A DNA stretch of 62,121 nt, filler included, from Actinobacteria bacterium UBA7524 (GTDB lineage: Bacteria; Actinomycetota; Coriobacteriia; Anaerosomatales; UBA912): assembly GCA_002478275.1 (NCBI GenBank). It is 8 parts of 8 records of this genome, joined end to end, with 100 filler letters (N's around TTAATTAATTAA, not from the genome) between each part and the next. Parts side by side here need not be neighbours in the genome. Positions count along the whole stretch, not along the records: positions 42,226 to 54,113 come from DLMY01000045.1; 7 more parts are not named here. One strand, given 5' to 3'. Positions 13,794 through 54,113 of this stretch are shown here, in pieces. Numbering within the stretch: position 1 is the first letter of the stretch; every line of letters begins with the position of its first letter. Below the pieces are notes generated by a model, which was given only the letters and a program-made list of their open reading frames with translations, was not told where the DNA came from and did not search any database. Position numbers and translations under genes: made by a program.

Positions 13794-14585
13794 CTCCGTC
13801 AGGCGGTCGGCCCGGAAGTCCACACAGATATCCTCGCCGATCTCGAACGTGGGGGTGTGAAGCCGGCCATCGTTGAGCGCGGCCGCGCGCTCGCGCGCTG
13901 TGTTGTCCGATGAGACGTCGACTTCCGTGAAGCTGATGCCGTGTTGCTTGAGCCACGCCCTTGCCGACCTGCAGTCAGGACACCAGGGGGTGCAGTACAT
14001 CACGACGGCGGAGCCGGCGCCGGATGTTGAGGCCGCAGGCGAGGACTCCGCAGGCGCCGTGTCGGTCTCGGCAGTCTGTTCGGACGGCTCCGGCTGTGTG
14101 GCCGGCAGGGCCGCCAGTTCGGGTTCCAGCTCACCGAGCAAGTCGAAGAGCACTTCGTTGTCCGGCTGGTCGTCGATGGCGTGGACGTCCGAGTAGCGCA
14201 CGATCCCCTCGCGGTCCACCAGGAAGACCGCCCGTTCGGAGGTTCCCTCCTCGCGGCGGAACACGCCCCACGTCGTGGCGACCTCGCCATGAGGCCAGAA
14301 ATCGGACAGCAGCGGATAGGTGATTCCCTCCAGACTCTCCGCCCAGGCCTTCAGGCAGGGAACATGGTCGACGCTCACACCCACGACCTGGGTGTCGAAC
14401 CCTTCGAACCGGGCCAGTTGCGCCTGATACGAGGGTATCTGGTTGGTTCAAACAGGCGTCCATGCGAGGGGGAAGAACGCGATCACCACGTTGCGTCCGC
14501 GAAGCGCGGAAAGGTCGAACGACTCGTCCAGGTGGGTCGTTCCGACGAGTGCGGGTGCAGGGTCACCAGGCTGTGGAACCTTCAT
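13770..14585 (-). CDS. Selenocysteine-containing peroxiredoxin (AhpC/TSA) fused to a glutaredoxin-like domain
   Basis: ORFs 14448-14585 and 13770-14384 are in frame across TGA at 14448-14450: FFPLAWTPV-U-TNQIPSY..GVSVDH..LLSDFWPHG..ERAVFLVD; C-terminal YCTPWCPDC. Confidence 0.85.
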
Positions 14586-14599
14586 CGCGAACCCCCGTA

Positions 14600-15529
14600 T
14601 CATCGCTCCTGTTCCAGGCACCAGCTGTAGAGGGTCGGCAAGGTCGTGTCCAGTGGCAAGGCGTCGTAATAGAGCGTTCGTCCGTCTCTGTCGACCAAGA
14701 GCCACGACGGTGCGACCAGTGTCTTGTTCTGTCCTGTCAGTCCACTCGGCTGGACATGGAACAGCCGCAGTAACGTGGCGACCGTGTCCCACCATCCCGA
14801 AACCGTCACTGTCGGGAGATCGTACTCCTTGATGAGTGCCTCGGTTTCGGCGCGCTGTGTCAGCAAGTCGACCGTCACGACCTCGATGTCGTTGGGGAAC
14901 TGATCCTCAAGACCCATCGTCTCCTTGCGCAGAGTGCGCAGGTCCGCGGCGGTCACGGTGCCGAACAGGTTGGGTGCGTTGTCGGTGTCCGACACGTAGA
15001 AGTAGTAGATGAGCGCAGGGTTGGTCTTGACGCGTGCATCAGTGCCGGCGAAGGAGCCCTGCCACTGGTCATGACCCCCGGCAACATAATGCGAGTTGTT
15101 GAACCCTTCGCGAGCGAGTATCGCTTGAGCGGACCTTGCGCGAGACTCCGCAGAGCTGGTGATCACGATGGTATCCGACCGGGCCCATGTGGTCATCAGA
15201 TCGTTCAGCGATCGCATCGGGACGTTTGATGTTCCCGCGATATGCTCGCGGTCGTACTCGCTCTTGGTGTCCACGTTGATGAATCGCGCTCCGTCGGCGA
15301 CAAGCTCTGCTGCGTCGAAGTAGTCGATCTTCGGCTCCAGGCCAGAGTCGGAGACGGGAGCGGTGTCCTCGACCGATGGCTGGACGGGCGGAGGCGGCGG
15401 CGTGGTCACCGCCAGGTCGTCGGATTCGAACATGAAGCAGCCGGAAAGTGCCAGCATCGCCGGCAGTAGGACAAGCAGGGTGACTGAACGTATAGTGCGG
15501 GCCGCCCGGTGGTGTGACGTCGAGTGCAT
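14600..15529 (-). CDS. Lipoprotein with rhodanese-like and thioredoxin-like domains
   Basis: Lipobox LSGC; EYDREHIAG..VAGG..W rhodanese-like motifs without an obvious catalytic Cys. Confidence 0.7.
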   Translation of the reverse strand: MHSTSHHRAARTIRSVTLLVLLPAMLALSGCFMFESDDLAVTTPPPPPVQPSVEDTAPVSDSGLEPKIDYFDAAELVADGARFINVDTKSEYDREHIAGTSNVPMRSLNDLMTTWARSDTIVITSSAESRARSAQAILAREGFNNSHYVAGGHDQWQGSFAGTDARVKTNPALIYYFYVSDTDNAPNLFGTVTAADLRTLRKETMGLEDQFPNDIEVVTVDLLTQRAETEALIKEYDLPTVTVSGWWDTVATLLRLFHVQPSGLTGQNKTLVAPSWLLVDRDGRTLYYDALPLDTTLPTLYSWCLEQER

Positions 15530-27851: not shown

Positions 27852-27943
27852 GCCTAACGTGGTTGCGGATAACCTGCGCGCCTACAGCTTACCGCGCGAA
27901 GCGCCGAGACGCTTGTCGCGTCAGGTTGATCCGCTTGTTAGCA
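27852..27943 (-). repeat. Integron attC site (92 bp)
   Basis: Plus strand GCCTAAC..GCGGATAACCTGCGCG...CGCGTCAGGTTGATCCGCTTGTTAGCA. Confidence 0.9.
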
Positions 27944-28632: not shown

Positions 28633-28652
28633 AGTCACTATGAGATGGCCGG
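28633..28652 (+). mobile_element. IS1111-type IS110 element, left end (copy 3)
   Basis: AGTCACT-ATGAGATGGCCGG identical to 46391 and 52644; follows CCTGCT, the R' of the next attC. Confidence 0.85.
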
Positions 28653-32293: not shown

Positions 32294-32422
32294 CCGGCCA
32301 CCCCCTAGTAGGCCTAACGTGGNNNNNNNNNNNNNNNNNNNNNNNNNNNNNNNNNNNNNNNNNNNNTTAATTAATTAANNNNNNNNNNNNNNNNNNNNNN
32401 NNNNNNNNNNNNNNNNNNNNNN

Positions 32423-40318: not shown

Positions 40319-40933
40319 CTACGGCGACCGGCGTTCCTGAGAACCCGGCAGCTCCTCAGGCGTAGCGTCGGCCCGCTGCGGCCGCAGGGCGCGGGCCACG
40401 GCGGAGTGACTGACGCCGAGGGCGCCTGCAATCTGGCGGTAGGGCATGCCCTCGCCGCGCAAGCGCTTCGCCAGCGCCACACGTTCCGGTGTCATGACGG
40501 TCGGCCGGCCGCCGACGCGTCCTTCGGCGCGAGCGCGGGCCAGACCGTCGCGTGTGTTCTGGCGGATCGTATCGACGCGCAGCTGAGCGAAGACCGCGAT
40601 GATGCTGTAGAACGCGCGGCCCATCGGCGACGTCGTGTCGATCGCGGGCTCGGTGAGCGAGCGCAGGTCGATAGACCGGCGCTCGAGCTCGTCGAAGATC
40701 TGGAGCATCTGCTGTTGGGATCCCGCCAGCCGGTCGAGCCGGTAGACGAGGAGCGTGTCCCCGTCTCGCAGGTAGTCCAGGCAGGCCTTCCACTGCGGGC
40801 GGTCGGCGCGCCGGCTGGACTCCCCGTGATCGGTGAAGACCCGGACCGCTCCGGCGTTCCGTAGCGCGGTCTCCTGCATCCCTGGATCCTGGTCCCGCGT
40901 CGAGACGCGGGCGTAGCCGATAAGAGCGCCCAC
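40319..40933 (-). CDS. Serine recombinase (resolvase/invertase)
   Basis: IGYARVST, DRPQW, VYRLDRL, ARAEGRVGGRP, C-terminal HTH. Confidence 0.93.
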   Translation of the reverse strand: MGALIGYARVSTRDQDPGMQETALRNAGAVRVFTDHGESSRRADRPQWKACLDYLRDGDTLLVYRLDRLAGSQQQMLQIFDELERRSIDLRSLTEPAIDTTSPMGRAFYSIIAVFAQLRVDTIRQNTRDGLARARAEGRVGGRPTVMTPERVALAKRLRGEGMPYRQIAGALGVSHSAVARALRPQRADATPEELPGSQERRSP

Positions 40934-40937
40934 CTTC

Positions 40938-41621
40938 TCAGCGCTCCCTCAGCCGGGCGAACCAGGACCGGAGGGCGTTCGCGTCAAGTGCGAGTGCCGG
41001 CGCGTCCCGCTCGATGGTCGCCGCCCGGAAGACCGGCACGAGCGGGCGCGGGTCCGGCTCGCCGTACGGGTCTGCCGGTGCGGACAACCGGGAGGCCGTG
41101 TTCCACGTCTGCGGATCGATCGTATGGAAGCGGAGGCGGAACGCCGAGCGCTCCGCCACGTGCGCCATGAAGACCTTGGACGTCCGCCCGTTGCCCTCCC
41201 GGAACGGGTGCGCGTGATTCAGGTAGACGAACGCGCGGGCGGCCGCGGCCGCGAACGCGTCACGATCGAGAGTCCGCCAGTCGGTCGCCTCGATCACGCG
41301 GCGGGCGTAGCCGACGTACCGGCCGATGTGATCCGGGGGCGCGAAGGCGCTATTGCCCTTCTCCATCCCCACCGTGCGATACTCGCCAGCCCACTCATAC
41401 ACGTTGATGAACAGATGCGCGTGGATCGCGCGCAGGTGGGCGCCGTCGTAGGTGCGCGGGATCTCCACTCTACCGTGCTTGATATCCGCCTCGCGGCGAT
41501 CCGTCTCTCTATGCTCCCGGATGTGCAGGGCGAGCAGATCCCGCTCGCCCCACTTGTTCCGGAGCACTTCGCCGCCAGGCTCCCACAGGTAGGCGTTCCA
41601 GCGCTCCCACTCATCGCTCAT
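40938..41621 (-). CDS. Fic family toxin (AMPylase)
   Basis: HPFREGNGRTSK Fic motif. Confidence 0.92.
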   Translation of the reverse strand: MSDEWERWNAYLWEPGGEVLRNKWGERDLLALHIREHRETDRREADIKHGRVEIPRTYDGAHLRAIHAHLFINVYEWAGEYRTVGMEKGNSAFAPPDHIGRYVGYARRVIEATDWRTLDRDAFAAAAARAFVYLNHAHPFREGNGRTSKVFMAHVAERSAFRLRFHTIDPQTWNTASRLSAPADPYGEPDPRPLVPVFRAATIERDAPALALDANALRSWFARLRER

Positions 41622-41848
41622 CGTGCGGCCTTGGCCTTCTGCACGCGGAGCTCTGTGCGGCGATCGTACTCCGCATCGTCGATCTCGCCCTTGTCCCAGG
41701 CGATAAGGTCCGCCACGTCCTCGCGGTTCGGCTTCCAGCCTTCATGCCAGTTGCTCGCGAAGATCTCCAGGTAGCTCTCGATCGTCTCTCCATCCATCCC
41801 GACGAAGAGATCCGGGTAGAGCCTCACCAGATCGAGTGTCTTCGGCAC
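41618..41848 (-). CDS. VbhA/FicA-like antitoxin
   Basis: SNWHEG matches the (S/T)xxxE(G/N) inhibitory motif; overlaps the fic start; RBS AGGAGG. Confidence 0.8.
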   Translation of the reverse strand: MPKTLDLVRLYPDLFVGMDGETIESYLEIFASNWHEGWKPNREDVADLIAWDKGEIDDAEYDRRTELRVQKAKAAR

Positions 41849-42102
41849 GGTGGGCCTCCTGTCTGGCCGTGGTCTATCTCCATGGTACGCTCTTGTCTCG
41901 AAAACGTCACGCTCGGGTTGCGGTACACTTTCATTTCGATACAGGGTTTCGGTACATGGCGCCGTGCGTGAGCGCCTGCCCGGGTCCGGCGGCCTTGGCG
42001 GCGTCTCTATCGTCTTCGTTTTCGGTGCAAAACACCCCTTCGGAGGCCTGCGAAGGGGTGTGCCGTTCATCCCTGAAAACCGACCGCTCTTGCTGCGTTC
42101 TA

Positions 42103-46363: not shown

Positions 46364-46483
46364 CTTGCCCCCACCCACATTGCTCGAGCTAGTCACTATG
46401 AGATGGCCGGCCCGATTCCGGTGTATACGTGGATCGTCCCCGAGGAACAGGCCCCGGGGCGCCGACAAACGGAGGGACCGGCC

Positions 46484-47581
46484 ATGAACCAGATTACACA
46501 CATCGGACTCGACGTGCACAAGGACTCGATCGCGGTAGCGGTGCTGCGTCCAGACACCACTGAAGTCGACGAGCGGGTGATCCCCAACACACCCGAGGCG
46601 ATCCGGCGGCTACTTGGCCGCCACGACCCGCTCCTCACGACCGTGTGTTACGAGGCGGGCCCGAGCGGCTATGACACACACCGGCTCGTGAGCGGCTTGG
46701 GCTTTCCGTGCGACGTGATCGCGCCCTCACTCATCCCACGAAGGAGCGGCTCTCGCGTCAAGACCGACCGTATCGACGCAAGGAACCTCGCTCGCCTCCA
46801 TCGCGCAGGGGAGCTGACGTCCGTGCGCGTTCCCACGGCTGCCGAGGAGGCAGTGCGCGACCTTATCCGCGTGCGTGAGGAGGTCAAATGCGACAGGCGC
46901 ATCGCCCGCCAACGGATCCGAAGCTTCCTGCTTCGCTACGGCAAGCGCTATCCGGCAGGTCCGGACAGGTGGTCGCAGCGCTTCGAGGTCTGGGCGCGCT
47001 CGGTCACCTTCGAAGAGCCTTTGGCGACAGAGGCGTTTCGCAACCTGCTCGGCGCCTACTTCGTTCGAGACGTACAGCTCGCGGAGATGGGCAGGAGGAT
47101 CGAGGAGCTCGCGGCAGAAGAGCCATTCGCGACGGGTGTGGCGCGTCTTTCGGCACTTCGTGGCATCGGTGTGCTTAGTGCCATGACCATCCTTGCCGAG
47201 ACATGTGACTTCGCCCGCTTCGGCGATGCGAAAAGCTACATGGGCTTTACCGGGCTCACGCCATCCGAGCACTCGAGCGGCGCTTCGAGGCACCAAGGCT
47301 CGATCACCAAGACCGGTAACCGGCATGTGCGCCGCGTGCTCGTGGAATCGGCCTGGGCCTACCGGCACGCACCTGCGGTGCGAGGCAAGCTCAAAGAGCG
47401 GCTCGAAGGACAGGGGCCTGAAATCGCGGCCTACTCGTGGGCCGCGCAGGTGCGCCTGAACGGCGTCTTTCGCAGGATCTCAGCGAGGAAGGGTGCGCAC
47501 ACCGCCGTCGTGGCCACCGCGCGAGAGCTCTCCGGGTTCATCTGGGGGCTTATGACCGACAACCTCGGCCCTGCGCGGTAG
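46484..47581 (+). CDS. IS110-family transposase/recombinase
   Basis: IGLDVHKDSI, CYEAGPSG, VKTDRIDA, GLTPSEHSSG, ITKTGN, ATAREL. Confidence 0.95.
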   Translation: MNQITHIGLDVHKDSIAVAVLRPDTTEVDERVIPNTPEAIRRLLGRHDPLLTTVCYEAGPSGYDTHRLVSGLGFPCDVIAPSLIPRRSGSRVKTDRIDARNLARLHRAGELTSVRVPTAAEEAVRDLIRVREEVKCDRRIARQRIRSFLLRYGKRYPAGPDRWSQRFEVWARSVTFEEPLATEAFRNLLGAYFVRDVQLAEMGRRIEELAAEEPFATGVARLSALRGIGVLSAMTILAETCDFARFGDAKSYMGFTGLTPSEHSSGASRHQGSITKTGNRHVRRVLVESAWAYRHAPAVRGKLKERLEGQGPEIAAYSWAAQVRLNGVFRRISARKGAHTAVVATARELSGFIWGLMTDNLGPAR

Positions 47582-47799
47582 TAGACGTCATGCACGCGGG
47601 CGGGCGCCACATTCCGGAGAGATCCTCGATCACGTTATGCGACGTACGTAAGCGCGCGCCTAGTTGGAGGCAGGCTCCGGTCCGACCGAGATGTGGGGTT
47701 GAAATCCCCGGATATCAGCATGGTCGAGCGCCGAACCCATGTGCCCGCCCGCTTGCACAACCCCCAAGATCAAGACCGCCGTGAGCGATGGGGGGTTGA
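47582..47799 (+). ncRNA. Predicted seek/bridge RNA of the IS1111-type element
   Basis: Structured NCR closed by GCGGGCGGGC / GCCCGCCCGC; contains CACGTTA, CGCCTA (target-like) and ATATCAG (donor-junction-like); near-identical copy after 53951. Confidence 0.65.
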
Positions 47800-47898
47800 C
47801 CGGCCATCTCATATCAACGTGTTTGCGCATCACCCGCAAACCGCGGCCGATGCGACCGACGGCAAGCGTACAGCTCTTGGCCGCGGTTTGTCGCGGTG

Positions 47899-49178
47899 CT
47901 GCTCCTATGTCAATCCTACACCGCCTCAGCCACCACGACTGGTGAGAAATCGACGTGCACGACCCCTGCGCCCCTCGCTCGCTCCGCCCGAAGCATCGTC
48001 TTGTAGAGCGTGCGGGTGATGTGGCGCTTGAGGCATCTGAGCGCCTCGCGCGTGCTCATCCCTTCAGCCCGCTTGCGCTCGATGTAGGCGATCGCGGGCG
48101 GGTGCATGCGCGCCTGCGTGACGGCGATGATGTGGACCGTGGAGTTGAGTGTCCTGTTCCCCGTGCGATTCAGCCGGTGGCGCTCGGACTTGCCGGAACT
48201 GACCGCAAGGGGCGCCGTGCCTACGTGCATCGCGAAGGCGGCCTCTGAGCGGAATCGGCTTGCCGTGCCGGTCTGGCCCACAAGGTGGGCCGCGGACAGC
48301 GCAGAGCACCCGGGCACCTCCGTGAGCTCAGGTGCGAGCACGCGCACGTGTTCGCGTATCTCGCGTTCGAGTGCGCGGATGTCTGCCGTCAACTCGCGAC
48401 AGCGCCTCACCTGATCGATCGCAATACGCCGCCGCATGCTCTCAGGCAACAAACCAAGCGCCGCCTCGAGCTTATCGAGCCACACGTAGCGGTCGAGCAC
48501 TCGGGGCGGCAGCTCGAGTGCGACCTCGAGGTCATGGCAGTTCCAGCGCAGGCGCCTGATGATACGCTGGCGCTCTTCGACCAGGTCATCGCGGTGATCG
48601 GCAAGCAGGCGCACGTCGTGTTCGGGGCCGGCCGGCGTCGCGAGCGGCAGCGACGGCTCCCGAAGCGCGGCTCTGGCCACGCATGCGGCGTCGATCGGGT
48701 CGGACTTGCCGTACGTACCAAGAGGTGGCGCTCGAGCCTGCCCGACACATGCCGGCAGTCGTCGATCGCGAAAGTGCGCTGCTCGTCCAGGCCGCGTACC
48801 CAGGAAAGCAGAAGGGCGTACCCCTCCGAGGTGCAGGGGATGGTCTTGTCCCCCACGCTGCGTCCCGTCGATGCGTCGAGAGCCACCGCGGTGTGGGTCT
48901 TCATATGCGGGTCGATGCCGACTACGATCATCACTGTCCCCTTCCGTCGGAAACACCTTCCGATCGTGGGGCACGTCGGCGGACACGCCTTAGCTGGGGC
49001 CTCTAGGCCAGGCTCCTATCAGGTCACGACGACGACCCCTCGGATCCGGCGGCGGGGGACATAACACGCGTAGGTCAGCCCTTCGAAGCGACAGATGCGC
49101 AGGAGGGTCACCCCACCGCCAGAACCAAGGCTACCCGACTCGCGTCAGGCATCCCACAAGGAACAGAGTGACGCTAAG
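47899..49178 (-). mobile_element. Second IS110-family element with 5' non-coding region
   Basis: Right end TTGACATAGGAGCAG (minus strand); inserted in the L'' box of the attC; NCR about 48935-49178. Confidence 0.8.
47916..48934 (-). pseudogene. IS110 transposase, frameshifted by an internal deletion
   Basis: N-terminus IVVGIDPHMKTH..AIDDCRHVSGRLERHLL and C-terminus GKSDPIDA..GTAPLAVSSG..RLNRTGNR are in different frames, joined near 48715. Confidence 0.8.
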
Positions 49179-49188
49179 GATGCGCGGG

Positions 49189-50031
49189 TTAGCCAGCAAT
49201 CGGAGTGAGGAGCTGGAAGAAGGTCCACAGAACCAGTGCCAGCAGCAGGACCGCAAACACCCAGCGCGCAGTTACCGGCAGTCGATACCAGTCCCGGCGA
49301 ATCTCTAGGTACTGCCGAACTGCCCACCCAATGCCAAGCCCGAGAATCCCAGACAGCACTGTGGCGAGCACCAGTATTGCTGTGCGCTGCACCACCGTCG
49401 CAGCTTGAGGGATACCAAAGACACCCGCAGCCAACGCCCCAGTGAGAGAACCCACTAGACCACCGAAGCCTATTGGTGAAACACGGCCATACTCCTTAGC
49501 ACGGTGCCTCTTGTGGCGACGAATCGCGTCACGATCATCTGCGCCCGCGACCCCGATACCATCGACGGTACGCATGAAGACAGTTCGCTCAGAGTACTCC
49601 GTTGAAGAAGTGCGCAGTCTGCGCGTTGTCTCATGCACATGCGATGTCGGATGTATTGTGAGCACGCCAATGCGGCGAGACTCGAACTCGACGACATCGA
49701 ACTCGAGATGGTCAACGGGTGGGTCAGATGCTGACGAAAGCAGTTGAGCGATGCGCCTACAAACCCCATCGGTGGGGAAATCGATAGCGTCATACGTCTC
49801 CCGACCCCCGTTCTCATCTCTGGTGTCGGAAACGCCTACAACCAGATAGGCCTTGTCACCGGCGGTCGAAGCACTGCCGTTTGCAAGTGACAGGACATCC
49901 TTGATCAACTCACCTCTACTGCGCTCGCGAGCTTCAGTGGCCTCGGCGTCAATCGGATACCATGCGCGTTTGAACTCCAGAGTGGGGCCCTCGTCCCTCT
50001 GGATAAGTTCAACTAGCTGGTCGACGTTCAC
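49189..50031 (-). CDS. Schlafen/AlbA_2 domain protein with C-terminal TM helices (cassette)
   Basis: DEGPTLEFKR, KDVLSLANG, YLVVGVSD, three TM segments; TAA stop inside attC R''. Confidence 0.85.
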   Translation of the reverse strand: MNVDQLVELIQRDEGPTLEFKRAWYPIDAEATEARERSRGELIKDVLSLANGSASTAGDKAYLVVGVSDTRDENGGRETYDAIDFPTDGVCRRIAQLLSSASDPPVDHLEFDVVEFESRRIGVLTIHPTSHVHETTRRLRTSSTEYSERTVFMRTVDGIGVAGADDRDAIRRHKRHRAKEYGRVSPIGFGGLVGSLTGALAAGVFGIPQAATVVQRTAILVLATVLSGILGLGIGWAVRQYLEIRRDWYRLPVTARWVFAVLLLALVLWTFFQLLTPIAG

Positions 50032-50050: not shown

Positions 50051-50299
50051 GGCTAACGTTCTTGGGCGTAACCCGCAACGCCGACGCCCGGCTTCCTGCC
50101 CGAGTCTACCTCACACNNNNNNNNNNNNNNNNNNNNNNNNNNNNNNNNNNNNNNNNNNNNNNNNNNNNNNNNNNNNNNNNNNNNNNNNNNNNNNNNNNNN
50201 NNNNNNNNNNNNNNNNNNNNNNNNNNNNNNNNNNNNNNNNNNNNNNNNNNNNNNNNNNNNNNNNNNNNNNNNNNNNNCGGGTTGACGCCCGGGTTAGAC
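50051..50299 (-). repeat. attC site spanning an N gap
   Basis: GGCTAAC..GGGCGTAACCCG ... CGGGTTGACGCCC GG GTTAGAC arms are complementary. Confidence 0.8.
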
Positions 50300-50430: not shown

Positions 50431-50447
50431 CGGAGGGGAATGTGCGC

Positions 50448-51881
50448 ATGAGTACCCAGATAGGCGTCCGTGAAGCCGCAGAACTCTTGGGAATCAGTCA
50501 GCAGAGAGTGCGGACGCTCTGTCGGTTAGGGACTCTGCCGGCCAAGATGGTCGGGAACGCCTGGGTCGTCGAGCGTGAAGCCGTGGATCTCTACGGACTC
50601 CAGACCGCGCATATGGTCGCCGAAGACCACCCTACGTATCAACCGGTCAGCTCCGCCCAGAGGAGGCCTATCGCGCTCAGCTTCTTCAGCGGGGCGATGG
50701 GCTTGGATTTGGGCATCGAGAAGACAGGGTTCCGTGTCCTGCTGGCGTGCGAGGTCGACAAGTACTGCAGGCAGACCATAGCCATCAACCGCCCAGCGAC
50801 CGCGCTGCTCAGCGACATCAGCACATACTCGAAGGGTGACGTCCTGGAGGCCGCAGGGCTCACCGAGGATGACGACATCGACCTGGTCATTGGTGGACCC
50901 CCTTGTCAGGCGTTCAGCACTGCCGGCAAGAGGAAGGCTTTCAACGACGACAGGGGGAACGTCTTCCTTGACTACATCGAACTAGCCCTGCAGCTTCGAC
51001 CCAAGTTCATCGTTATTGAGAACGTTCGGGGACTGCTGTCTTGCCCCTTGGATCACAGACCTCATGATCAGCGCGGTTCCGAGTTCCCAGACCTGACTGC
51101 TGACGAACTGAAGGGCGGCGCGCTGAACTTCATTCTCTCGAAGCTCCGGAACTCCGGGTACGGCTACTCCTTCAATCTGTATAACTCGGCCAACTTCGGG
51201 ACTCCCCAGATCAGAGAGCGCGTCATCATCGTTTGTGCTCGGGATGGCCAAGCACCACCGTTCCTGACTCCGACGCACTCTGAGAACGGAGAGTACGGAC
51301 TACTCAGGTGGCGTACTTTCAGGCAAGCGACTGCGGGACTGACGGATCACCAACACCTGACCTTCCCGGAGAAGCGGCTGAAGTATTATCGAATGCTCAA
51401 GCCCGGCCAGAACTGGAGGGCTCTTCCTAGAGAGTTGCAGAGAGAAGCTTTGGGCAATTCCTTCTATGCTGGCGGCGGCAAGACCGGCTTCCTGAGAAGG
51501 CTCGACTGGGACAAGCCCGCTCCCACGTTGGTGACCCACCCGGCGATGCCGGCGACCGACCTCGCCCATCCCGAGGAGGACAGACCTCTGTCTTTGCAGG
51601 AGTACAAGAGACTTCAGGAATTCCCTGACGACTGGCAGCTTGCCGGGCCCATGATTCAGCAGTACAAGCAGATTGGAAACGCTGTTCCGTGCAGCCTAGG
51701 ACAAGCCGTCGGCCGCCTGGTTATCGAGCTGATCAACGGGGAGACGCCCCAGGACTACCCGGGCTTCCCGTACTCCCGGTACAAGAACACCGCCAACACC
51801 GATTGGGAGAGAGAGTTCGCCCAGGCCCTCAGCAGATCTGTCGTGCCATCTCCGACTCAAGAGGAGCTGGCTCTCACCTAG
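50448..51881 (+). CDS. DNA (cytosine-5) methyltransferase with N-terminal HTH
   Basis: FFSGAMGLDLG, GGPPCQAFS, ENVRGL, PQIRER, QEFPDDW, QIGNAVP; N-terminal EAAELLGISQQRVR. Confidence 0.95.
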   Translation: MSTQIGVREAAELLGISQQRVRTLCRLGTLPAKMVGNAWVVEREAVDLYGLQTAHMVAEDHPTYQPVSSAQRRPIALSFFSGAMGLDLGIEKTGFRVLLACEVDKYCRQTIAINRPATALLSDISTYSKGDVLEAAGLTEDDDIDLVIGGPPCQAFSTAGKRKAFNDDRGNVFLDYIELALQLRPKFIVIENVRGLLSCPLDHRPHDQRGSEFPDLTADELKGGALNFILSKLRNSGYGYSFNLYNSANFGTPQIRERVIIVCARDGQAPPFLTPTHSENGEYGLLRWRTFRQATAGLTDHQHLTFPEKRLKYYRMLKPGQNWRALPRELQREALGNSFYAGGGKTGFLRRLDWDKPAPTLVTHPAMPATDLAHPEEDRPLSLQEYKRLQEFPDDWQLAGPMIQQYKQIGNAVPCSLGQAVGRLVIELINGETPQDYPGFPYSRYKNTANTDWEREFAQALSRSVVPSPTQEELALT

Positions 51882-52618
51882 GACGGGCTACCCCAGACGT
51901 TTCCCTCCTCCATGCAGAGACAATCTGGATTCGAAGACACCGTTGCGTTCACGAACGCCACGAAGGACTCCTCTGAGAGATCAGAAGTTCCGCAGATTTC
52001 GTTCAGCTCATCCCACATGTACTGGATTCTGTCGGCCTTGATTCGAAACCACTTCTCGATCACCGTTCCAGCTCTAACCGTGCTACTCGAACTGTTCTCG
52101 GAGTTGCTGCGGTTCTTCACTTGCAGCAACGCGCCGTTCTCATGGACGAAGTCGACAGACTTGACGGTCTCCCCCCAGGCACAGTGCCAACCATGTCCCT
52201 CGAGGTTCACGGCCAGATACTCCTCGAGAATCAACCCCAGGATGTTCTCCGCTGACATTGCGAGTCGGTGAGCGTACGTGATCCTCTCAAGATCCTCATC
52301 GCTCAACCCGTCAAGGCGAGCGGCGATGATCTTCTCAATCACGGGGTCAGCAACGGTTCCGGGGGGATTCGATGCTCTCACTGAGGCACGACCCTCGTAT
52401 CCGCGTTGGTACTTCAGAACCCACTTCTCTATAGCCGCACGGGCACTGTCGCTGGCACCGCCGATGTTTGCGGGGACGCGCTCCGGATCCGCAACAATTG
52501 CTGCGAACACGTAGCGGGCTCCGCCTTGCCAGTCGACACCCGCGATCTCCGCGTACTCCGCGGCGACGGCCGTCGCCCTGCTAGCACCCATGCTCGCAAT
52601 CGCATCCTTGAGCTTCAA
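51878..52618 (-). CDS. Type II restriction endonuclease, SinI-like family
   Basis: MSAENILGLILEEYL, GETVKSVDF, LQVKNRSNSENSSS; convergent with the C5-MTase. Confidence 0.75.
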   Translation of the reverse strand: MKLKDAIASMGASRATAVAAEYAEIAGVDWQGGARYVFAAIVADPERVPANIGGASDSARAAIEKWVLKYQRGYEGRASVRASNPPGTVADPVIEKIIAARLDGLSDEDLERITYAHRLAMSAENILGLILEEYLAVNLEGHGWHCAWGETVKSVDFVHENGALLQVKNRSNSENSSSSTVRAGTVIEKWFRIKADRIQYMWDELNEICGTSDLSEESFVAFVNATVSSNPDCLCMEEGNVWGSPS

Positions 52619-52643: not shown

Positions 52644-54113
52644 AGTCACTATGAGATGGCCGGCCCGATTCCGGTGTATACGTGGATCGTCCGCGGGAAT
52701 GAGCCCGCGGCGCCGACAAACGGAGGGACCGNNNNNNNNNNNNNNNNNNNNNNNNNNNNNNNNNNNNNNNNNNNNNNNNNNNNNNNNNNNNNNNNNNNNN
52801 NNNNNNNNNNNNNNNNNNNNNNNNNNNNNNNNNNNNNNNNNNNNNNNNNNNNNNNNNNNNNNNNNNNNNNNNNNNNNNNNNNNNNNNNNNNNNNNNNNNN
52901 NNNNNNNNNNNNNNNNNNNNNNNNNNNNNNNNNNNNNNNNNNNNNNNNNNNNNNNNNNNNNNNNNNNNNNNNNNNCGGCTACTTGGCCGCCACGACCCCC
53001 TCGGCACACAGCTGTGCTACGAGGCCGGACCCACCGGCTACGACACCCACCGGCTCATAAGCGCACTGGGCTTTCCTTGCGAGGTGATCGCTCCTTCGAT
53101 GATCCCGCGCAGGAGCGGGGTACGCGTCAAGACCGACCGCATCGATGCCAGGAACCTCGCACGTCTGCACCGTGCAGGCGAGCTCACGAGCGTCCGCGTC
53201 CCGGGGATCGCCGAGGAGGCCGTGCGCGACCTCATACGCGTGCGCGAGGAGGTCAAGTGCGACCGAAGGATCGCGCGTCAGCGCATCCGCAGCTTCCTGC
53301 TGCGTTATGGCAAGCGCTATACGGGTCCGCGTGACGCATGGTCCAGGCGCTTCGAGACCTGGGCGCGCGCCGTGAAGTTCGACGAACCACACGCGGACGA
53401 GGCGTTCGGGCATCTGCTTGCCGCTTACTTCATGCGCGACGCACAACTCGCCGAGATGGGCAGGCGCATCGAGGAGATCGCGCAGACCGAGCCTTTCGCG
53501 ACGGATGTGCGCCGCCTGAGTGCGTTGCGCGGCATCTCCACTCTCTCTTCGATGACCATCCTCGCCGAGACATGCGACTTCGCTCGATTCGGTGATGCGG
53601 GAAGCTACATGGGGTTCACCGGCCTGACCCCTTGCGAACACTCGAGCGGGGCGAGCCGCCACCAAGGCTCGATCACCAAGACCGGCAACCGTCACGTACG
53701 CCGTGTGCTCGTCGAATCGGCCTGGGCATATCGCCACGCGCCTGCGGTGCGAGGCAAGCTCAAAGAACGGCTCGAAGGGCAACCGCCTGAGGTCGCGGCC
53801 TATTCGTGGGCCGCGCAGGTCAGGCTCAACGGAACATATCGACGTCTCGCCGCTAAGAAGGGTGCGCACACCGCCGTCGTGGCCACCGCCCGTGAACTCT
53901 CGGGCTTCATCTGGGGGCTTATGACCGACAACCTCGGCCCCTGCGCGGTAGTAGACGTCATGCACGCGGGTGGGCGCCACATTCCGGAGAGATCCTCGAT
54001 CACGTTATGCGACGTACGTAAGCGCGCGCCTAGTTGGAGGCAGGCTCCGGTCCGACCGAGATGTGGGGGTGAAATCCCCGGATATCAGCATGGTCGAGCG
54101 CCGAACCCATGTG
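52644..54113 (+). mobile_element. IS1111-type IS110 element, copy 2 (gapped, right end missing)
   Basis: Same left end after ACGTCT; homologous transposase at about 52976-53951 and near-identical NCR. Confidence 0.9.

What the first reader, a model, noticed from the sequence alone, without database searches (positions are those of the whole stretch)
46391..47815. IS1111-type bridge/seekRNA recombinase targeting the attC R' box, with readable guides
Seen: all three copies (28633, 46391, 52644) sit at the same position of the plus-strand R' (..CT|AAC), and removing the complete copy restores AGCTAAC. The IRs lie 7 and 3 nt from the ends, and the circle junction would form TTGACC-17bp-CACTAT. 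The 3' NCR holds CACGTTA (47631-47637, opposite strand of TAACGTG), CGCCTA (47657-47662, like the R' consensus GCCTA) and ATATCAG (47712-47718, the donor junction). Known: IS1111 elements encode a guide RNA downstream of the transposase, and attC-targeting IS1111 groups exist in Proteobacteria. Inference: an RNA-guided recombinase programmed to the IntI crossover site, which would lock cassettes in place.
Basis: partly seen in the sequence, partly recalled or inferred. Interest (0 to 1): 0.82.

Follow-up and report, generated by a model that had tools for sequence, protein, structure and literature searches.

The report
RNA-guided insertion sequence hitting integron attC
This is a jumping gene that uses its own small guide RNA to land at one exact spot in the recombination sites of an integron; the kind is already known from Proteobacteria, and this is a separate lineage in Actinomycetota that hits the other end of the site.

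Summary
The sequence observations hold. 46391-47815 is a complete IS1111-type element: a DEDD/Transposase_20 transposase, 13-bp subterminal inverted repeats 7 and 3 nt from the ends, and a 234-nt 3' non-coding region.

The window is a chain of draft contigs. The copies at 28633 and 52644 are cut by contig ends, so they show only the left junction.

Across relatives, mostly in MAGs named Coriobacteriia or Actinomycetes, 24 of 25 distinct left flanks end in CT. All 18 distinct right flanks start with AAC. I could read a whole canonical attC in 14 of those 18. The insertion point is GTT|AG of R', antisense to the cassettes.

The 3' region is a conserved two-arm RNA (9 of 38 pairs compensatory). 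Its 5' guide covaries with the flank (p = 0.0003), and a sister clade has different guides, ends and target.

So the RNA-guided reading is supported. The claim that it locks cassettes is untested. The idea is not new: seekRNAs were shown for attC-targeting ISKpn4 and ISPst6 in 2024. What is new is the lineage (26% identity to ISPa21), the host phylum and the sub-site, since ISPa21 sits beside R''.

Earlier notes of this scan recorded IS1111-attC-type elements on other DNA.

The parts
46391..47815 (+). Complete IS1111-type insertion sequence (1425 bp), with no target duplication
   Evidence: Ends were defined by the shared sequence of three window copies and of relatives.
46398..46410 (+). Left subterminal inverted repeat ATGAGATGGCCGG, 7 nt from the end
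47800..47812 (+). Right subterminal inverted repeat CCGGCCATCTCAT, 3 nt from the end
46484..47581 (+). Transposase/recombinase gene, 365 aa
   Evidence: Pfam DEDD_Tnp_IS110 (2.9e-18) and Transposase_20 (4.7e-19). NCBIfam NF033542 'IS110 family RNA-guided transposase', 244.7 bits against a cut-off of 140. The motif G257-L-x-P-xxxx-S265-G266 was read from the alignment.
47591..47757 (+). Structured 3' RNA (long seekRNA / bridge RNA). A closing stem (47591-47606 with 47742-47757) encloses a target arm and a donor arm.
   Evidence: RNAalifold on 22 sequences gave 38 pairs, 9 of them with compensatory changes. 98.8% of cells are paired, against 37-46% when partners are slid.
47629..47637 (+). Top-strand target guide AUCACGUUA, complementary to T|AACGTG
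   Evidence: It covaries with flank positions +5 to +8 in 16 guide/flank pairs. The sister clade has CGGACGCUA with flank AGCGTCC.
47657..47664 (+). Bottom-strand target guide CGCCUA plus GU. The GU continues into the element's left end (CT|AGT).
   Evidence: Flank logo: G at -4 in 17/25, C at -2 in 24/25, T at -1 in 25/25. Reading GU as a 'handshake' is inference.
47712..47718 (+). Donor guide AUAUCAG, which equals right end ATATC plus left end AG of the circle junction
   Evidence: Clade A rows have AUAUCAG with right end ...CATATC. Clade B/C rows have AUACGAG with right end ...CATACG.
47796..47801 (+). TTGACC, a putative -35 of a promoter formed only in the circular form. The -10 candidate CACTAT lies at 46394-46399.
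   Evidence: Read from the sequence. TTGAC and the 17-nt spacing are kept in the sister clade. Not tested.
28633..28652 (+). Left-end stub of another copy, cut by a contig end
52644..54113 (+). Second, diverged copy with an internal N gap, cut by a contig end. It is about 80% identical in tnp and 99% identical in the 3' RNA region.
47816..47893 (-). Body of the target attC on the cassette strand: the rest of L'', the variable stem, L', spacer AAACAC and the GTT of R'
46384..46390 (-). Rest of R' (AGCT...), which is also the start of the downstream cassette (ORF 46369 down to 44168)
49175..49197 (-). 5' part of the same attC: R'' GGCTAAC, spacer CC, L'' GCGCATC
   Evidence: With both insertions removed the three pieces fold as one hairpin with a paired R box (about -30 kcal/mol, DNA parameters).
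47894..49174 (-). Second, unrelated IS110-family element inserted in L'' of the same attC. It has a 5' non-coding region and a frameshifted transposase. Boundaries are good to +/-3 nt.
27854..27861 (+). Unoccupied target CTAACGTG in the R' of an intact attC (27941 down to 27850 on the minus strand). Two more lie at 32314-32321 and 50053-50060.

Best explanation
46391-47815 is an active-looking IS1111-family insertion sequence. Its recombinase is directed by an RNA transcribed from the element's own 3' non-coding region.

Inferred cycle:
1. The element excises as a circle.
2. Joining the ends places TTGACC 17 nt from CACTAT, which drives the transposase gene and the downstream RNA.
3. The RNA folds into a closed two-arm structure.
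4. In the target arm, AUCACGUUA pairs with the top strand T|AACGTG. That is the GTT of R' plus the adjacent unpaired spacer, read on the attC bottom strand. CGCCUA pairs with the bottom strand of ..G.CT|A.
5. In the donor arm, AUAUCAG matches the circle junction ATATC|AG.
6. The recombinase then exchanges strands and inserts the element without a duplication, at GTT|AG of R' and antisense to the cassettes. This is 2 nt from the integrase crossover.

Shown here: the anatomy, the target site, the conserved RNA structure, and the covariation of guides with target and donor.

Inferred only: expression and processing of the RNA, the circle, the promoter, the chemistry, and any effect on cassette mobility.
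For: Family anatomy.

Target:
- 25 distinct left flanks have T at -1 in 25/25, C at -2 in 24/25 and G at -4 in 17/25.
- 18 distinct right flanks have AAC in 18/18 and G at +4 in 17/18.
- Whole attC sites (R''-2 nt-L''...L'-5/6 nt-GTT) were read in 11 flanks, in 2 more (L128, L129) and in the window.
- An integron integrase above the NCBIfam cut-off is present in 5 of 5 relatives' genomes and in 0 of 14 control genomes.
- One MAG contig has intI, at least 4 attC sites, and the IS in the second attC.

Guide covariation in 16 guide/flank pairs:
- Positions +5 to +8 match in 40/64 cells against a permutation mean of 31.1 (p = 0.0003).
- Position +6 matches in 11/16 against 5.2 expected.
- L002 matches over 9/9 (T|AACGATGT).

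Sister clade (about 60% identical transposase): guide CGGACGCUA with flank AGCGTCC in 9 of 12 readable flanks; donor guide AUACGAG with right end CATACG.

RNA structure.

Guide layout: the top-strand match lies 5' of the bottom-strand match, and the two overlap at the insertion point. This is as described for IS1111 seekRNAs (PMC11187229, section 9).

Multi-copy behaviour: contigs of public runs branch into different flanks at 46388/46389 and from 47816 on.
Against: - There is no RNA evidence.
- In 6 of 16 pairs the guide mismatches its flank somewhere in +1 to +6.
- The bottom-strand guide matches the flanks poorly at -3 (C in 7/25) and -5 (C in 8/25). For the window copy it matches only CTA.
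- No convincing second donor guide was found on the 5' side of the donor arm (GAGAUGU).
- At the second core position the target has A and the donor has G, which does not fit a simple identical 2-nt core.
- The copies are related, so covariation counts are not fully independent events.
- The -10 candidate CACTAT is weak.
Confidence: 0.85

Rival explanations
1. The recombinase finds attC through protein recognition of the hairpin or of the subterminal repeats. On this view the short matches in the non-coding region are coincidence or serve another purpose.
For: - The matches are short (7 nt).
- In the window alone 41 of 2000 shuffles gave as many junction-spanning 7-mers.
- The bottom-strand guide fits the flanks loosely.
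- IS1111 elements have long subterminal repeats whose reader is unknown (PMC11187229, Discussion).
Against: - The guide and flank change together within the clade (p = 0.0003).
- They also change together between clades, and the donor guide changes with the right end.
- The RNA structure is conserved with compensatory changes.
Confidence: 0.05
2. It is simply a member of the published proteobacterial IS1111-attC group (ISPa21, ISPst6, ISKpn4) that has moved into Actinomycetota.
For: - It shares the same family architecture, an attC target and an orientation antisense to the cassettes.
- This matches the description in the Discussion passage of PMC3001079.
Against: - The transposase is only 26% identical to that of ISPa21 (E = 2e-13). 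That is no closer than to IS4321 (23%).
- ISPa21 in pME-1a sits 5-6 nt after the AAC of R'', between R'' and L''. This element sits inside R' at the other end of the attC.
- The best plasmid hits are 43-47% identical and are unnamed IS110-family genes.
Confidence: 0.07
3. The insertion locks cassettes by destroying R'.
For: - The insertion splits R' (GTT|AGNC), so 4 of the 7 R-box positions are replaced by IS sequence (GATA).
- The authors of PMC11616780 speculate in their Discussion passage that ISPa21 may disrupt attC sites.
Against: - The conserved GTT and the G|TT crossover stay on the attC side, so the site might still recombine. The IS would then travel with the downstream cassette.
- Nothing here tests either outcome.
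Confidence: 0.35

Closest known systems
IS1111-attC group (ISPa21, ISPst6, ISKpn4, ISPa25), whose seekRNAs were shown by Siddiquee et al. 2024 (PMC11187229)
   Same: IS1111 architecture, a 3' guide RNA with the top-strand match 5' of the bottom-strand match, an attC target, and insertion antisense to the cassettes.
   Different: - About 26% transposase identity to ISPa21.
- It inserts inside R' at the 3' end of attC. ISPa21 inserts between R'' and L'' at the 5' end.
- The hosts are mostly MAGs named Coriobacteriia or Actinomycetes, not Proteobacteria.
- I could not read Tetu & Holmes 2008 or Post & Hall 2009. [quoted passage not shown]
ISEc11 / ISXne4 natural reprogramming (PMC11187229, section 10)
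   Same: Close relatives keep the stems of the RNA but swap the guide segments and the target.
   Different: Here the swap also involves the donor guide and the right end. Within one clade there are also single-base guide variants that track attC spacer variants.
IS621 bridge RNA (Durrant et al. 2024, PMC11208160)
   Same: A two-loop RNA that reads both target and donor, each on both strands.
   Different: The RNA here is 3' of the gene, the guide order is reversed and the subterminal repeats are long. The second donor guide was not identified.
IS4321 / IS5075 (target the terminal repeats of Tn21-family transposons; known to me only as a title in a reference list)
   Same: IS1111 family elements that parasitise another mobile element's recombination sequence.
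   Different: The target is different, and identity is 23%.
Group IIC-attC introns (PMC3001079)
   Same: An RNA-guided element that homes to attC, antisense to the cassettes.
   Different: That is a retroelement, not a DEDD recombinase.

Membership tests
IS1111 family (within ISfinder IS110) | DEDD (RuvC-like) N-terminal domain plus PF02371 C-terminal domain | tested here: met
   Pfam PF01548 (2.9e-18) and PF02371 (4.7e-19). NF033542 scores 244.7 bits.
IS1111 family (within ISfinder IS110) | Subterminal inverted repeats of sufficient length | tested here: met
   A perfect 13-bp repeat, 7 and 3 nt from the ends, kept in relatives.
IS1111 family (within ISfinder IS110) | The longer non-coding region lies downstream of tnp | tested here: met
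   93 nt upstream against 234 nt downstream.
IS1111 family (within ISfinder IS110) | C-terminal GL-P----S(T)G motif | tested here: met
   GLTPSEHSSG at residues 257-266, read from the alignment. The motif is as given in PMC11187229, section 6.
IS1111 family (within ISfinder IS110) | The seekRNA carries a top-strand match 5' of a bottom-strand match, and the two overlap at the insertion point | tested here: met
   47629-47637 and 47657-47662 overlap at T|A.
IS1111 family (within ISfinder IS110) | The transposase clusters with IS1111 transposases in a tree | tested here: inconclusive
   Only pairwise comparisons were made: 23% to IS4321, 26% to ISPa21, and 26% over a shorter stretch to the neighbouring IS110-type element. 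No ISfinder reference set was available.
IS1111 family (within ISfinder IS110) | The RNA is made, binds the transposase and is needed for movement; a circular intermediate forms | not testable with these tools
   This needs wet-lab work.
IS1111-attC group (Tetu & Holmes 2008) | Inserts site-specifically in attC, antisense to the cassettes | tested here: met
IS1111-attC group (Tetu & Holmes 2008) | Insertion near the 5' end of attC (as stated in PMC3001079; ISPa21 read here) | tested here: not met
   This element splits R' at the 3' end. ISPa21 in pME-1a lies 5-6 nt after the AAC of R''.
IS1111-attC group (Tetu & Holmes 2008) | Monophyletic transposase subgroup with ISPa21 and ISPst6 | tested here: inconclusive
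   26% identity to ISPa21, no closer than to IS4321. No tree was built.
Integron attC site (the target) | R''(..AAC)-spacer-L''...L'-spacer-R'(GTT..), with paired R and L boxes, directly downstream of a cassette ORF | tested here: met
   The reconstituted site folds with a 6-bp R box.
Integron attC site (the target) | An integron integrase is present in the genome | tested here: inconclusive
   None was found among 54 ORFs of the window, and no whole genome is held. It is present above the cut-off in 5 of 5 relatives' genomes and next to the array in one.

The most novel reading that the evidence does not exclude
Two unrelated RNA-guided insertion-sequence lineages have each specialised on the attC sites of integrons in Coriobacteriia.

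- One is this IS1111-type element at R', with a 3' guide RNA, antisense to the cassettes.
- The other is the neighbouring IS110-type element at L'', with a 5' guide RNA, in the sense orientation.
- The host phylum is one for which a 2022 survey reported no complete integron.

The R' lineage exists as a set of guide variants, each matched to a different attC spacer variant. That would mean guide and target are diversifying together. Because the insertion leaves GTT on the attC, the element may ride along with the downstream cassette rather than lock it.
Probability: 0.4. Interest if true: 0.6.

Novelty: new member of a known kind. Interest (0 to 1): 0.42.

Why it matters
It gives a natural series of closely related guide RNAs with single-base guide changes matched to their insertion sites. 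It also gives a sister clade retargeted in target guide, donor guide and right end together. This is ready material for testing the rules of IS1111 seekRNA targeting.

It shows that attC parasitism by RNA-guided recombinases arose more than once and at different sub-sites.

It points to apparently complete integrons in Coriobacteriia genomes. The IntegronFinder 2.0 survey (PMC9024848, passages read) reported no complete integron in Actinobacteria.

It does not change the known picture of how such elements work.

Tried and rejected
- Rfam has no family for this RNA. Only chance-level microRNA hits came back.
- Megablast of the element against plasmids found nothing.
- No whole genome is held for the window.
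- My own structural scan for attC sites (AAC...GTT with an L-box duplex) was too unspecific: 0 hits under the strict filter and 314 under the loose one. I dropped it and read attC sites flank by flank instead.
- No RNA holder was listed among 19 public runs.
- The four runs I laid are DNA contigs. They show branching flanks but cannot show an RNA, a circle junction or an empty site for this exact attC.
- I looked for a second donor guide complementary to the left end (AGTCACT) and found none. GAGAUGU on the 5' side of the donor arm matches the inverted repeat in clade A, but not in the sister clade.
- Tetu & Holmes 2008 (PMC2447020) is not held, and Post & Hall 2009 was not read. The figures and supplements of PMC11187229 that show the ISKpn4 target were not visible. 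The sub-site comparison therefore rests on my own reading of one ISPa21 copy.
- Accessions NC_006385, CP041734 and KP975077 were not in the plasmid collection. NZ_CP041734 was.
- Two regex hits (L035, L102/L103) were false right ends and were left out of all counts.
- L017 and L065 matched the loose left-end pattern only by chance and were excluded by the exact pattern.

Full report
**What the window is.** The 62-kb window is not one molecule. It is eight draft contigs joined by N44-TTAATTAATTAA-N44 linkers, with further N gaps inside some of them. G+C is 63%. No whole genome is held for it. This matters for the finding, because two of the three 'copies' lie at contig ends.

**The observation.**
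- The complete copy runs from AGTCACT... (46391) to ...CATATC (47815).
- Its flanks are GAGCT| and |AACGTG.
- The 13-bp inverted repeats ATGAGATGGCCGG and CCGGCCATCTCAT lie 7 and 3 nt from the ends.
- Joining the ends would place TTGACC 17 nt from CACTAT.
- CACGTTA, CGCCTA and ATATCAG are at the stated coordinates.
- The copy at 28633 is a 20-nt stub. The copy at 52644-54113 has an N gap and is cut at the contig end. For both, only the left junction CT|AGTCAC is visible.
- The third copy is about 80% identical in the gene but 99% identical in the 3' region.
- In the window alone the two junction-spanning 7-mers are only mildly unusual. 41 of 2000 shuffles had as many, and 9 of 2000 had one for each site.

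**What the element is.**
- The 365-aa ORF (46484-47581) carries DEDD_Tnp_IS110 and Transposase_20.
- It scores 244.7 bits on NCBIfam NF033542, 'IS110 family RNA-guided transposase'.
- It has the GL-P----SG motif that PMC11187229 (section 6) gives for IS1111 transposases.
- With subterminal repeats, a 234-nt 3' non-coding region against 93 nt at the 5' end, and no target duplication, it has the IS1111 architecture.
- Pairwise identity to IS1111-family references found on plasmid pME-1a is low: 23% to IS4321 and 26% to ISPa21.
- The best plasmid hits are 43-47% identical.

**Relatives.**
- A scan of one genome per species found 38 loci. Those at about 60% identity or more are mostly in MAGs named Coriobacteriia, Coriobacteriaceae, Actinomycetes or Actinomycetota. 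One partial 59% hit (L035) is in a MAG named Spirochaetota.
- A metagenome scan added 73 loci.
- Searches of five relatives' genomes added more ends.
- After collapsing identical flanks there are 25 distinct left junctions and 18 distinct right junctions for the close clade, clade A.
- Left flanks have T at -1 in 25/25, C at -2 in 24/25 and G at -4 in 17/25.
- Right flanks have AAC in 18/18, G at +4 in 17/18 and T at +5 in 15/18.

**The target is attC R'.** Read on the opposite strand, the right flanks are canonical attC sites: R'' (..YAAC), 2 nt, L'' with extra bases, a variable stem, L', a 5-6-nt spacer, then GTT at the junction.
- I read the whole site in 11 flanks, in L128 and L129, and in the window. 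That is 14 of 18.
- The other four flanks were seen only for 49-60 nt. They begin with the same spacer and L' pattern.
- In the window the attC is split twice. Its 5' part is at 49197-49175, its body at 47893-47816, and the remainder of R' at 46390 and below.
- With both insertions removed in a script, the three pieces fold into one hairpin of about -30 kcal/mol with a 6-bp R box.
- Intact attC sites of the same type lie at 27941-27850 and 30995-30905 on the minus strand.
- The insertion point is therefore GTT|AG of R' on the cassette strand, 2 nt to the 3' side of the G|TT crossover. The crossover position is established knowledge that I recalled. The transposase gene is antisense to the cassettes.
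- Three unoccupied CTAACGTK sites in the window all lie at such R' positions, upstream of minus-strand ORFs.
- The window itself shows no integrase among 54 ORFs. However, 5 of 5 relatives' genomes have an integron integrase at about 470 bits (cut-off 265), against 0 of 14 control genomes.
- One MAG contig shows intI, at least four attC sites on the same strand, and the element in the second attC.

**The RNA.** An alignment of 22 non-coding regions from clade A and a sister clade with about 60% identical transposase gives a closed structure.
- A 15-bp closing stem (47591-47606 with 47742-47757) encloses two arms. Each arm is a stem, an internal loop and a distal hairpin.
- Of 38 pairs, 9 show compensatory changes.
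- 98.8% of cells are paired against 37-46% when partners are slid by 1-3 columns. The covariation score is 0.215 against at most 0.073.
- The length, about 167 nt, fits the 145-170 nt 'long seekRNA' of PMC11187229 (Discussion).

**Guides.**
- In the first arm the 5' side of the loop holds AUCACGUUA, which is complementary to the top strand T|AACGTG. The 3' side holds CGCCUA, which has the same sense as ..G.CT|A. The order (top-strand match first) and the overlap at the insertion point are as described for IS1111 seekRNAs (PMC11187229, section 9).
- The first guide varies among clade A copies (CAC, AGC, CAU, GAC, AAC, CAAC), and so does the flank.
- In 16 guide/flank pairs, positions +5 to +8 match in 40 of 64 cells, against 31.1 under permutation of the pairing (p = 0.0003). 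Position +6 matches in 11 of 16 against 5.2 expected.
- With 13 pairs the test gave p = 0.0006. After collapsing identical combinations to 10 it gave p = 0.007.
- L002 matches over nine bases.
- Against this, 6 of 16 pairs have a mismatch within +1 to +6.
- The second guide fits the flanks only at -4, -2, -1 and +1.
- The two bases after CGCCUA (GU) continue into the element's own left end (CT|AGT). This resembles the 'handshake' extension of IS621 bridge RNAs. That comparison is recalled, not tested.

**The sister clade.**
- Its ends are AGTCACG... and ...CATACG.
- Its first guide is CGGACGCUA in most copies.
- Its right flank starts AGCGTCC in 9 of 12 readable flanks. The other three differ at +3.
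- This is a natural retargeting of target guide, donor guide and right end together.
- It counts as one evolutionary event, so it is supportive rather than statistical.
- I found no convincing partner guide for the left end on the 5' side of the second arm.

**Comparison with what is known.**
- attC-targeting IS1111 elements have been known since 2008-2009.
- PMC11187229 showed that ISKpn4 and ISPst6 make a seekRNA that co-purifies with the transposase and carries matches to both strands of the attC target. ISPa25 is predicted to do the same.
- To compare sub-sites I read ISPa21 in the class 1 integron of plasmid pME-1a. It lies antisense to the cassettes, 5-6 nt after the AAC of R'', between R'' and L''. 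This agrees with the statement in PMC3001079 that these elements sit near the 5' end of attC.
- By eye, the non-coding region of ISPa21 holds UAACAAU and UUGAAC, which match its own target in the same order. That is a useful control for the reading method.
- The present element sits at the opposite end, inside R', and its transposase is only 26% identical.
- I could not read the two original papers, nor see the figures with the ISKpn4 logo.

**Consequences for the integron.** The insertion replaces the last four positions of R' by GATA but leaves GTT and the crossover on the attC. The site could be dead, so the cassette is locked. Or it could still recombine, so the element moves with the downstream cassette. 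This cannot be told from sequence.

**Verdict.** The RNA-guided, attC-R'-targeting reading is well supported by comparative evidence. The locking consequence is open. The kind is known, and this is a new lineage with a new sub-site in a new host phylum.

Noticed in passing
window 47894-49174 (minus strand), with relatives L134-L148: A second, unrelated IS110-family element sits in L'' of the same attC, right after GCGCATC, in the sense orientation. It has a 5' non-coding region of about 240 nt and a frameshifted transposase. Eleven distinct left flanks in three MAG genomes all read R''(CTAAC)-2 nt-L''. Segments of its 5' region (GCGC[A/U]UC and GUCAGCUG/UACGCGUG) seem to follow the flanks. It looks like a separate attC-targeting lineage with an IS110-type bridge RNA.
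   Followed up: partly
L150 (a 15-kb contig of a Coriobacteriaceae MAG); genomes G001-G005: An apparently complete integron. intI lies at 14028-14978 on the minus strand, co-oriented with at least four attC-bounded cassettes. An integrase above the NCBIfam cut-off is present in 5 of 5 MAG genomes. The IntegronFinder 2.0 paper (PMC9024848) reported no complete integron in Actinobacteria.
   Followed up: partly
L003 1238-2298, L006 about 2700-2781, and run X2 at window 47704-47713: An IS1595-like element is inserted in the distal hairpin of the donor arm of relatives of this IS. It has a 324-aa ORF and terminal repeats GGGGGTAGTCGGTTAGCTCCACC. The hairpin, GGGGUUCGAAUCCCC, looks like a tRNA T-arm.
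   Followed up: partly
window contig ends 42125 and 62121; contig starts 23025, 28753 and 42226: Two contigs end in GTTAACGTCCCCGGAAGTGGTG, and three start with CACTTCAAACTTGAACTCAGGC. This is an unidentified repeat that breaks the assembly. The sister-clade elements in other metagenomes land at T|AGCGTCC..GGAAGTGGTG, which is a very similar sequence.
   Followed up: no
window 52644-54113 against 46391-47815: The two copies differ by about 20% in the transposase gene but by 1% in the 3' RNA region. This suggests exchange of the region or strong constraint on it. The two may also come from different strains of a MAG.
   Followed up: no
window 40319-42070 and 50442-52618: The cassette-like units carry a Fic/VbhA toxin-antitoxin pair with a resolvase, and a SinI-type restriction enzyme with a C5 methylase. 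A Schlafen/AlbA_2 gene lies at 49189-50031.
   Followed up: no
L043 (metagenome relative): This copy lacks the whole donor arm of the RNA, a 40-column deletion in alignment A1, but keeps the target arm and both ends.
   Followed up: no
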